In this document: one piece after another, positions 24,612 to 38,184 of the stretch
Numbering within the stretch: position 1 is the first letter of the stretch
Layout: every line of letters begins with the position of its first letter
NCBI GenBank assembly: GCA_951406725.2
Contig: OX597826.1
Span: 54,560,001 to 54,624,000 of the forward strand
Reading direction: 5' to 3'
DNA from: Octopus vulgaris
Lineage: Eukaryota
DNA: 64,000 bases
Made by a program: the position numbers and the translations under genes
Notes under the pieces: model-generated
The model's database searches: none
Told to the model about the DNA's origin: nothing
What the model saw: the letters and a program-made list of their open reading frames with translations, nothing else

Positions 24612-25134
24612 CATATATATAGCACAGAATTTTGTCAGTGAATAGGTCGCAGTCTCAAAGTGATGAAAATATTTTGGCAAATTAGATTTAAATGTTGAAG
24701 TGAATCTAACGGTTTTTGTGTGTTTCTTAAATGGCTTATAAACACCTTCCACGTTGCAATTGTTTTCGTTCCTGCACACGATCTCAGATCAGGTTACTTG
24801 CTGTGCAAGTACATCTCCGTAGTATGTATGTATGTATGTATATATATATATATAAATAAAAACTTGGAGAAGAGAAATAGAGAAATAACGCGTGCGTTCG
24901 GTCATATAGTAAAAAATAAATAAATAAAATATATGCATATATACATACATATATGTACATACTTACATCTACATGTATATATACATGCATACATATATAT
25001 ATATATGTGAGTACAGGACACCACAAATAAACGTAGAACACAACGAGAGACGAGAACATAAAATCAAACAAGGAAACGGACTTTTTTTAAACAACGAAAA
25101 AACAGAGTACAGGACAAACAATACAAGGAAAATT

Positions 25135-25197
25135 CCCCTTCATCAGCTGTCCCTGGTTCGACTCAAAGTGTGTTTCGAAGGTAAGGACAGAACACAG
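25135..25197 (-). ncRNA. Hammerhead ribozyme in non-circularly permuted order
   Basis: Minus strand: c tgtGTT ctgtcct ta ccttc GAAACACA ctttgagtcgaacca gggacag CTGATGA agggg. All core motifs are present, with stems III (5 bp), I (7 bp) and II (4 bp). Confidence 0.65.
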
Positions 25198-25220
25198 TCG
25201 AAGCGGTTCGTCAAAGGTCA

Positions 25221-25347
25221 TCGATAAAATAACTTAGCGGGTCGCCTAGAAGATCGATAAAGTAACCTAGCGTTTCGCCATAAATCGATAAAATAACTTA
25301 GCTGTTCCACAAAGAGAGATCGGTAAAATAATTTAGCGGTTCGCCTT
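25221..25347 (+). repeat. Four ~33-35 bp tandem units
   Basis: tcgataaaataacttagcgg... x4 with substitutions. Confidence 0.8.
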
Positions 25348-25753: not shown

Positions 25754-26002
25754 ATGTTGTTAAAAAAAGTCCGTTTCCTTGTTTGATTTTATGTTTTCGT
25801 TTCTCGTTGTGTTCGAAGTTTATTTGTGGTGTCCTTTACTCATATATGCATGTATATATATATATAGATGTAGGTATGTACATATATGTATGTATGTATG
25901 CATATGTCTTATTTATTAAATTGTTATTATATATATATATATACGTATATATATATATATATACATATATGTACAGGTATATATAAATATATACAATTAC
26001 AT

Positions 26003-37467: not shown

Positions 37468-38184
37468 GTGCATATTAAAATGCGTTTTAAACATTATAGA
37501 TTATGTTTATATAACTACACACACACGCACCCATACACATATACACCCATGTAAATATGATATGATATGTATGTATATATATTTATATGTATTTATATAG
37601 GTATATAGATATATATTTACATGTATGTATATTATACATATCCATGTATATGTATGCATGTATGTTTGTATGTATCAAAAGGAAGTGTTATAATACTACT
37701 CCACAGCCATACCAACAATCCAGTATACCACCATCATCAGCTGCCCTACGGATATCATTATGGGGTTTTGACACCTGGGCCGTACCATTCAATCCGGCGG
37801 TGTCAACAGCACTAAAATAAGTGTTGTTTGGGAACAAACAAACCACAGAAGCCACAGCTTTCAAACACATTTACCCAATGTACAACCGTCTCGATAAATA
37901 ATGAATGTTTATATGTATGTATGTATGTGATGTATGTATGAAGTAAGGAAGAGACGTCAAGGGGTAAGAGACAGCCAGACACATTTACAATCATAGAAAA
38001 TCACACTGATAAAAAGCACGGGAGAATATTCATTCACTGTTGTATATATTGAAATATATAGTATATATGTACACAACACCATCATAAGCATATACAAAAT
38101 CATATACAAGTGAGTATGTGCGAATGCATGTGTATACATTTATACAGATGTGTGACAGGGATATACATACATGTATATCATTTA

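What the first reader, a model, noticed from the sequence alone, without database searches (positions are those of the whole stretch)
25135..25197. Hammerhead ribozyme wired in a non-circular (pseudoknotted) permutation
Seen (minus strand, 5'->3'): tgtGTT|ctgtcct-ta-ccttc-GAAACACA-ctttgagtcgaacca-gggacag-CTGATGA-agggg. GAAACACA pairs with the upstream tgtgt (stem III, 5 bp, cleavage triplet GUU). ctgtcct pairs with gggacag directly before CUGAUGA (stem I, 7 bp including one G-U). ccttc pairs with agggg (stem II, ~4 bp with wobbles). The strand order is [III'-NUH-I] -> [II'-GAAA-III] -> [I'-CUGAUGA-II], which is not type I, II or III: no helix is closed by its own loop. Established: stems I and II lie side by side in the HHR fold. 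Inference: the 2-nt link from I to II' and the ~15-nt link from III to I' are sterically sensible. Non-circularly permuted HHRs have been reported only recently, as I recall. Standard HHR descriptors would miss this one, and it sits in a PLE-like inverted-repeat element in an animal genome.
Basis: partly seen in the sequence, partly recalled or inferred. Interest (0 to 1): 0.9.

Follow-up and report, generated by a model that had tools for sequence, protein, structure and literature searches.

The report
Hammerhead ribozyme opened inside its core
This is a truncated copy of a predicted self-cutting RNA (hammerhead) whose parts are wired in an order that my literature searches did not find described, repeated thousands of times in this animal genome and present at the ends of Naiad jumping genes, which were reported to lack standard hammerheads.

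Summary
Stems I and III covary across repeat families; 0 of 100 window shuffles match it. The proposed stem II is not the conserved one. In 7 of 7 families of this genome the strand before GAAA pairs perfectly, with G10.1-C11.1, to an UPSTREAM segment. The bases after CUGAUGA instead close an extra helix, P5, beside a hairpin, P0 (weak in family D). So the A9-G10.1 link is opened, an order outside the six permutations of Eckert 2023. A written prediction for an unseen family largely held. The same wiring sits at the 3' end of 10 of 54 published Naiad Penelope-like consensus sequences, and 7 nematode records are type CSG (read by eye). Naiads were reported to lack canonical hammerheads. The window copy is 5'-truncated and has lost P5a, P0 and the stem II partner, so it is probably crippled. 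Cleavage is untested; geometry hints at a dimer.

The parts
24856..25207 (-). 5'-truncated copy of a non-coding repeat (family A; tandem period 765-785 nt elsewhere), 3' end running into (TA)n
   Evidence: 93.6% over 357 nt to the natural unit in L014; 2409 candidates, 40 scored
25197..25204 (-). P4 5' strand (its first base is lost at the truncation junction)
   Evidence: pairs with 25162-25155; two-sided changes between families at 3 columns in 16-20 sequences each
25183..25196 (-). S block: stem III 3' strand, U16.1, H17 (GUU; predicted cut between 25191 and 25190), stem I 3' strand
25169..25181 (-). G block: stem II 3' strand (11.5-11.1, CCUUC), GAAA, stem III 5' strand
   Evidence: its upstream partner GAAGG is present in 21 of 26 descriptor hits in the family-A loci but absent here
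25155..25162 (-). P4 3' strand, after a 6-nt bulge
25140..25154 (-). stem I 5' strand and CUGAUGA (C3-A9)
25135..25139 (-).
   Evidence: P5 >=4 bp in 19 of 24 intact family-A copies against 2 of 72 controls
25756..25917 (+). inverted, shorter, more diverged piece of the same kind of repeat (3' part, no ribozyme)
   Evidence: 82% over 181 nt
37673..37901 (-). decayed 3' end of a Naiad_Ovul-type element (family D) with the same wiring; G12 and one stem I pair are mutated
   Evidence: 82% over 241 nt to L098; sequence

Best explanation
The window holds the 3' two-thirds of a conserved RNA fold that carries all hammerhead core bases and is predicted to self-cleave when complete; it sits in a non-coding repeat that is likely a non-autonomous passenger of Naiad-type Penelope-like retroelements. 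SHOWN by sequence comparison: intact copies read P5a - hairpin P0 - stem II 5' strand (G10.1 first) - P4a - stem III/UH/stem I strand - 1-5 nt - stem II 3' strand/GAAA/stem III strand - P4b - stem I strand/CUGANGA - P5b. The RNA's ends thus meet in an extra helix inserted between A9 and G10.1. The nested scaffold is P5 closing a multiloop with P0 and a long P4+III hairpin. The loop at the tip of that hairpin carries the cut site and GAA, and pairs (stems I and II) with two single strands of the multiloop. INFERRED: this builds the normal hammerhead active site and cuts after the UH triplet. The loop more likely docks on a second copy (tandem repeat or another molecule) than on its own base (about 55:45). 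Cleavage would release unit-length RNA from tandem or read-through transcripts for circularisation or reverse transcription, as proposed for other Penelope-like elements. The window copy lacks P5a, P0 and the stem II 5' strand, so it would at best cut weakly alone or act as a substrate in trans.
For: (1) Covariation among families A/B/C: two-sided changes in stem III (17 and 20 of 57 sequences), stem I (18) and P4 (20, 17, 16); 93% of cells paired against 35-48% for slid partners. (2) Upstream stem II is 5-6 Watson-Crick pairs with G10.1-C11.1 in 7 of 7 family representatives, in five different sequences: GAAGG/CCUUC, GACACC/GGUGUC, GAGCA/UGCUC, GGCUG/CAGCC, GUGCC/GGCAC. (3) A prediction written before the search for family F held for P0, upstream stem II, P4, stem III and 6 of 7 stem I pairs. 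(4) A descriptor demanding stems I, III and upstream II gave 79 hits in 630,360 bases of 200 loci and 0 in each of 20 shuffles; it also picked up two families (G, H) that were not searched for. (5) P5 >=4 bp: A 19/24, B 15/18, C 25/27, F 11/15, G 7/14, against controls 2/72, 2/54, 2/81, 0/45, 3/42. The free MFE of natural copy L063 gives exactly the P5-P0-P4-III scaffold. (6) Core bases are fixed across families while N7 (U/A) and H17 (U/A/C) vary as hammerhead rules allow. (7) Family D matches the 3' end of published Naiad_Obim/Ovul and lies downstream of RT remnants in one locus (L138: RVT_1 E 1.3e-5, below the curated cutoff, at 1167-1607; motif at 2734). (8) The same wiring is seen by eye in published Naiads of a ctenophore, cnidarians, an acanthocephalan and a clam shrimp. 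(9) Tandem periods of 741-785 nt, inverted truncated copies, and (TA)8+ within 420 nt downstream in 24 of 29 family-A loci fit the description of Naiads.
Against: No cleavage data exist. No natural or engineered hammerhead opened between A9 and G10.1 was found in print, so activity rests on analogy with tolerated single-base insertions there. P5 failed the automated test in family D (6 of 21 against control 11 of 63; by eye 3-5 bp). Many genomic copies are decayed: upstream stem II >=5 bp in only 11 of 23 D hits and 6 of 18 F hits, and G16.2-C15.2 is broken in 11 of 57. Two P4 columns are unpaired in 21 and 20 of 57. Covariation counts reflect a few lineages, not independent events. Family A has no BLAST match to family D and no autonomous partner was found for it. 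The (TA)n count has no genome-wide control. Published Naiads were read by eye only; Beroe has a 2-bp stem I and Euprymna has no clean stem II.
Confidence: 0.75

Rival explanations
1. It is a type-SGC hammerhead as in Eckert 2023: stem II forms between the bases right after CUGAUGA (allowing one inserted base) and the strand before GAAA; the upstream complements are inhibitory or regulatory alternatives.
For: With one inserted base a 4-bp stem II (G-C, G.U, G.U, G-C) is possible in 24 of 26 A, 8 of 9 B, 25 of 31 C and 10 of 18 F hits. An unpaired base at the 5' end of stem II is known in PLE hammerheads. It is the only cis option for the truncated window copy.
Against: It never reaches 3 consecutive Watson-Crick pairs in A, B, C or D. 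It fails in the D, G and H representatives and, by eye, in the non-octopus split-form Naiads. Median duplex energy is -3.1 against -5.7 kcal/mol for the upstream partner in family A, and +0.9 against -8.1 in D. The downstream bases have their own partner, P5a.
Confidence: 0.1
2. The fold is conserved for a non-catalytic job (a handle for the Naiad RT/endonuclease, or a packaging or dimerisation signal), and the hammerhead core is vestigial or cuts only with protein help.
For: Tested PLE hammerheads cleave poorly in vitro. Bivalve and hemichordate Naiad consensus ends seen here show no core in most records, yet those elements spread. The broken A9-G10.1 link is unprecedented in what I could read.
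Against: All catalytic bases, A15.1-U16.1, H17 and G10.1-C11.1 are kept across families and phyla while every stem sequence turns over. Nematode Naiads carry near-perfect type-CSG hammerheads, a type that cleaved in vitro in Eckert 2023.
Confidence: 0.12
3. Chance arrangement of short motifs in a repeat, with no selected structure.
For: No Rfam hit; folding z-scores near 0; CTGANGA alone occurs 35 times in the window.
Against: Shuffle controls are empty; compensatory changes; a successful prior prediction; five different stem II sequences.
Confidence: 0.02

Closest known systems
Type-SGC hammerhead ribozymes (HRIMA-1; Eckert et al. 2023, PMC10085705)
   Same: Order S block, G block, then stem I/CUGANGA; short link from the stem I strand to the stem II strand; pseudoknotted core; an extra helix that joins the distal ends of stems I and II.
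   Different: Their block C is unbroken (the stem II strand follows A9), which the authors assume is obligatory. Here the stem II 5' strand lies upstream of the S block and two helices (P5, P0) are inserted at A9/G10.1. SGC was found in metatranscriptomes, none in genomes of known organisms.
Type-CSG hammerheads (Eckert 2023: two metagenome sequences)
   Same: Same cyclic order; same hairpin whose loop holds UH, the stem I strand, the stem II strand and GAA. Seven nematode Naiad records read as CSG by eye.
   Different: In CSG the CUGANGA loop is a separate hairpin with A9-G10.1 intact. The form in this genome joins both strands of that helix (P4) to stem III and opens A9/G10.1.
Type I minimal/dimeric hammerheads of Penelope-like elements and non-LTR retrozymes (Cervera and de la Pena 2014, 2020; Li et al. 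2026 preprint)
   Same: Near the element's 3' end or pLTR; tandem and inverted insertions; non-autonomous short repeats riding on PLEs; proposed dimer-dependent cleavage.
   Different: Those are circular permutations (type I) whose dimer forms through a palindromic stem III. Here stem III is intramolecular and any dimer would form by loop-to-multiloop pairing of stems I and II.
Naiad PLEs (Craig et al. 2021, PMC8557442)
   Same: (TA)n targets, partial tandems, inverted truncated copies; family D is the 3' end of Naiad_Ovul/Obim; their flagged HHR_core and HHR_half_core records include these motifs.
   Different: The paper reports no canonical HHR and did not resolve the half cores. Family A itself is non-coding and not alignable to family D.

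Membership tests
Hammerhead ribozyme (structural class) | Core bases C3 U4 G5 A6 N7 G8 A9, G12 A13 A14, A15.1-U16.1, H17 | tested here: met
Hammerhead ribozyme (structural class) | Stems I and III flanking the core, supported by covariation | tested here: met
   family F prediction
Hammerhead ribozyme (structural class) | Stem II with R10.1-Y11.1 next to G12 | tested here: met
   Met in intact copies through the upstream strand; that strand is missing in the window copy
Hammerhead ribozyme (structural class) | Site-specific self-cleavage 3' of H17 | not testable with these tools
   needs in vitro transcription; only assembled contigs were available
Types I, II, III (circular permutations) | Cyclic order C-G-S with a three-way junction | tested here: not met
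   order is S-G-C; no Rfam hit
Type SGC (Eckert 2023) | Blocks in the order S, G, C | tested here: met
Type SGC (Eckert 2023) | Block C unbroken: stem II strand within 0-2 nt of A9 | tested here: not met
Naiad PLE (autonomous) | ORF with N-terminal GIY-YIG and C-terminal RT | tested here: not met
   Family A units carry no conserved ORF. Family D loci carry RT remnants; their endonuclease part was not examined
Non-autonomous PLE derivative / non-LTR retrozyme | Short non-coding unit in head-to-tail tandems with one ribozyme per unit, plus inverted truncated copies | tested here: met
   periods 765, 785, 776, 741 nt; structures
Non-autonomous PLE derivative / non-LTR retrozyme | Expression as unit-length circular or linear RNA | tested here: inconclusive
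   no holder on record as RNA; contigs cannot show ends or circles
Non-autonomous PLE derivative / non-LTR retrozyme | Homology to the pLTR of an autonomous partner | tested here: inconclusive
   no BLAST match of A to D; no further search for a partner of A

The most novel reading that the evidence does not exclude
A seventh natural hammerhead wiring, opened by two extra helices inside the catalytic core between A9 and G10.1, is an active ribozyme that works as an obligate head-to-tail dimer, one RNA lending CUGANGA and half of stem II to cut the loop of another. Together with type CSG in nematodes it is the missing ribozyme of Naiad retroelements from ctenophores to octopus, with thousands of copies in this one genome.
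Probability: 0.42. Interest if true: 0.93.

Novelty: new variant of a known kind. Interest (0 to 1): 0.85.

Why it matters
It would overturn two published statements at once: that the CUGANGA block of a hammerhead cannot be separated from stem II (the basis for there being only six permutations), and that Naiad retroelements lack hammerheads, which was taken to suggest that ribozymes may be dispensable passengers of Penelope-like elements. It moves non-circular permutations from a few hundred anonymous metatranscriptome contigs into named animal genomes at thousands of copies (at least 7,375 exact pattern matches in this genome: 1659+263+618+4835). It gives a directly testable 110-150 nt RNA, a possible new mode of ribozyme dimerisation that would restrict cutting to tandem transcripts, and a new insertion point inside the core for engineering.

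Tried and rejected
Rfam and single-strand folding z-scores were uninformative because the core is pseudoknotted. A conventional type I reading downstream of CUGAUGA was rejected: no GAAA follows. No CUGANGA lies on the plus strand here. A subfamily suggested by a loose-end consensus of 0.71 agreement had 0 matches in the genome, so the label E was dropped. The follow-up pattern (27 matches, 6 control) was mostly noise but revealed family F. Expression: no RNA holder listed; contigs of 4 runs cover the stretch but show no ends or circles; this is no evidence either way. A 171-aa antisense ORF in one family-A unit is low-complexity and not conserved (105 aa in L006, absent in L012). Naiad records Smim, Ptep, Dst-1, Dst-2, Dst-4 and Skow-2 have a CUGANGA near the 3' end that I could not fit with confidence; they are not counted. 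I first assigned the record with a continuous 14-bp stem III+P4 to Darwinula; the headers show it is Naiad_EuTe. Lunse 2017 and Hammann 2012 were not held. Forgia 2023, Zhan 2024, a 2026 ribozyme-discovery preprint and the CChMVd loop paper gave no matching topology in the passages seen. Two look-ups in earlier scan findings returned nothing. No covariance model was built, since it cannot hold the crossing stems.

Full report
OBSERVATION. A descriptor for S-G-C order finds this site (stem I 8 bp, stem III 5 bp) and one weak site in the 64 kb window; none of 100 dinucleotide shuffles reaches 8+5. Rfam has no match and the fold z-scores are near zero. In the nomenclature of Eckert et al. [quoted passage not shown]

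THE REPEAT. The motif belongs to a high-copy family in the own genome (2.8 Gb, 227 contigs; 2409 candidates, 40 scored). Similarity to the other scored copies mostly stops at window 25207. The window holds a 5'-truncated copy, 24856-25207, 93.6% identical to a natural unit, and an inverted fragment at 25756-25917. Units occur as head-to-tail tandems of 741-785 nt and as inverted truncated copies, and 24 of 29 family-A loci have (TA)8+ within 420 nt downstream (no genome-wide control). No conserved ORF was found. Sister families B and C were found inside fetched loci; one exact pattern for A/B/C-like copies gives 1659 matches, control 0. That the genome is an octopus is my inference from size, microsatellite load and near identity of family D to published octopus Naiads.

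COVARIATION. I aligned 60 of the 90 A/B/C loci, 20 per family (57 distinct). These are three lineages, not independent events. Against: G16.2-C15.2 is broken in 11 of 57, and two P4 columns in 21 and 20. An upstream GAAGG pairs with the same CCUUC in 95.8% of cells, with G10.1-C11.1 in 51 of 57.

THE NAIAD LINK. Craig et al. 2021 (PMC8557442; I read sections 6 and 20, passages, the metadata table and motif or header hits in supplementary File S5) describe Naiad Penelope-like elements as inserting in (TA)n, forming partial tandems and inverted copies, and lacking canonical hammerheads, with some unexplained 'HHR_core' and 'HHR_half_core' cases. The 3' ends of their Naiad_Obim and Naiad_Ovul read as the same wiring with different stems. 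This family (D) has 263 exact pattern matches here, control 0. In L138 the motif lies about 1.1 kb downstream of an RT remnant (RVT_1 E 1.3e-5, below the curated cutoff; 2 of 7 fragments scanned hit RVT_1). A decayed D copy lies in the window at 37673-37901.

THE REAL WIRING. In representatives of 7 of 7 families (A, B, C, D, F, G, H) the strand before GAAA pairs by 5-6 Watson-Crick pairs, starting G10.1-C11.1, with a segment upstream of P4, in five different sequences. The bases after A9 mismatch at 10.1 in 7 of 7 and give four pairs with two wobbles in A, B and C if one base is inserted. The modal F sequence can also give four such pairs (10 of 18 hits). For family F, seen first only as truncated 3' halves, I wrote the expected upstream features down before searching. 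The 30 loci fetched from 618 matches showed hairpin P0, GAGCA/UGCUC, P4, stem III and 6 of the 7 predicted stem I pairs; the five stem II columns paired in 15, 17, 15, 13 and 16 of 17 anchored copies. The stem III letters I had guessed came from a minority variant; the majority variant pairs equally well. Families G (4835 matches, control 0) and H (one copy) turned up unsought from the descriptor. The descriptor gave 79 hits in 200 loci (630,360 bases, selected for the motif and partly overlapping) and 0 in each of 20 shuffles. A hairpin P0 ends directly before G10.1, and the bases after A9 pair with those before P0 (P5): >=4 bp in A 19/24, B 15/18, C 25/27, F 11/15 and G 7/14, against controls of 2/72, 2/54, 2/81, 0/45 and 3/42. 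Family D failed this test (6/21 against 11/63). The order is P5a-P0-IIa-P4a-IIIb-UH-Ib-IIb-GAAA-IIIa-P4b-Ia-CUGANGA-P5b. The unconstrained MFE of natural copy L063 gives exactly the nested scaffold, with IIa, CUGAUGA and most of the tip loop single-stranded; those of L003 and L215 give P5 and P0 but mispair the middle. Eckert et al. derive six permutations from the assumption that no more than one or two bases separate CUGAnGA from its stems; this form breaks that assumption.

OTHER ANIMALS (read by eye from the supplement, not computed, not exhaustive: motif search misses line breaks, I saw only the first five places of each CUGAAGA or CUGAGGA term, and only about 300 nt before each header). 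Of 54 Naiad records, the split form is seen in 10: Bfor (stem I only 2 bp), Chem-3 (stem II 4 bp; P0 and P5 not in view), Amil, Aacu (with mismatches), Anas, Movir-2, Plae, EuTe, Obim and Ovul. Esco has stems I, III and P4 without a clean stem II. Examples of stem II: GGCCCA/UGGGCC (Beroe), GGCUCC/GGAGCC (Acropora), GGCCCC/GGGGCC (Pomphorhynchus), GACGCC/GGCGUC (Eulimnadia). P5 is AGAGG/CCUCU in Pomphorhynchus and AACUGU/ACAGUU in Acropora. Seven nematode records (Nbra-1, -2, -3, Hcon, Hpol, Asuum and one Pristionchus record whose header I did not see) read as clean type CSG, known so far from two metagenome sequences. Six records with a 3' CUGANGA stayed unresolved, and the bivalve ends seen had none.

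HOW IT LIKELY WORKS. Inference from the known gamma-shaped fold (stem II coaxial with III, stem I alongside): stems I and II form when the tip loop of the P4+III hairpin pairs with the two single strands at the hairpin's own base. In a monomer this needs a near U-turn at the bulge between P4 and III. Family A has no base on one side of that bulge, and Naiad_EuTe has an almost continuous 14-bp helix with 2-3 nt linkers, too short by my rough helix-rise estimate (no structure file was available). A head-to-tail dimer between tandem copies or two molecules avoids the strain and matches the dimer dependence reported for other PLE hammerheads (passages of PMC4209133 and PMC6765202). I put dimer against monomer at about 55:45. 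A9 still pairs with G12 and stacks on G10.1-C11.1 (sheared pair described in PMC11300833), and single inserted bases at this point are known, so the site is a plausible place to open. Cleavage would cut tandem or read-through transcripts into unit RNAs, as proposed for PLEs and non-LTR retrozymes.

NOVELTY. Ten searches found no report of permuted hammerheads in Naiads or in animal genomes, nor of one opened at A9/G10.1. The library lacks most subscription papers, Lunse 2017 and Hammann 2012 were not held, and I did not see the supplements of Eckert 2023 or of the bioRxiv preprints, any of which could bear on this. Of the other papers I saw only passages, abstracts or listings (PMC7229834, PMC13725137, PMC10162972, PMC2632901, two 2026 preprints). 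Hammerhead numbering is from my own knowledge.

VERDICT. A real, conserved feature; it works like a hammerhead by every sequence test that could be run, is not a member of types I-III or of published type SGC, and is untested for cleavage. New variant of a known kind; interest 0.85.

Noticed in passing
window 37673-37901, minus strand: Decayed 3' end of a Naiad_Ovul-type element with the same permuted motif; G12 and one stem I pair are mutated.
   Followed up: partly
window 25220-25345: Four 27-nt units at 31-35 nt spacing (D19), part of another common repeat; the truncation junction of the family-A copy falls in a short microhomology with it.
   Followed up: no
L170:1323-1547 counted on the minus strand (G000:C26:25718729-25718953): 88-90 nt tandem with GGGGCC-GAAA upstream of UUCCUC-CUGAUGA, resembling the G and C blocks of the Pomphorhynchus Naiad motif, but no S block was seen.
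   Followed up: no
L160 and L163, near position 1500 on the minus strand: Canonical-order CUGAUGA ... GAAAC hammerhead-like family beside (TAA)n or (GAA)n repeats, probably from another Penelope-like clade.
   Followed up: no
L201-L220 (family G) and L171-L200 (family F): Family G has 4835 exact pattern matches, N7 = A or U and a P5 of up to 14 bp; whether F, G and H are ends of autonomous Naiads or short non-autonomous units was not examined.
   Followed up: partly
one search match list (G000:C1): Several further subfamilies of the A/B/C type with different P4 3' strands and spacers of 14-20 nt; more covariation is available there.
   Followed up: no
Craig 2021 File S5, 3' ends of bivalve and hemichordate Naiads: Most lack CUGANGA in the stretch seen but share another conserved GC-rich motif with apparent pairing, possibly a different ribozyme or structure.
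   Followed up: no
Craig 2021 File S5, nematode Naiads: Clean type-CSG hammerheads with a 9-17 bp helix closing the CUGANGA loop, in named animal genomes.
   Followed up: partly
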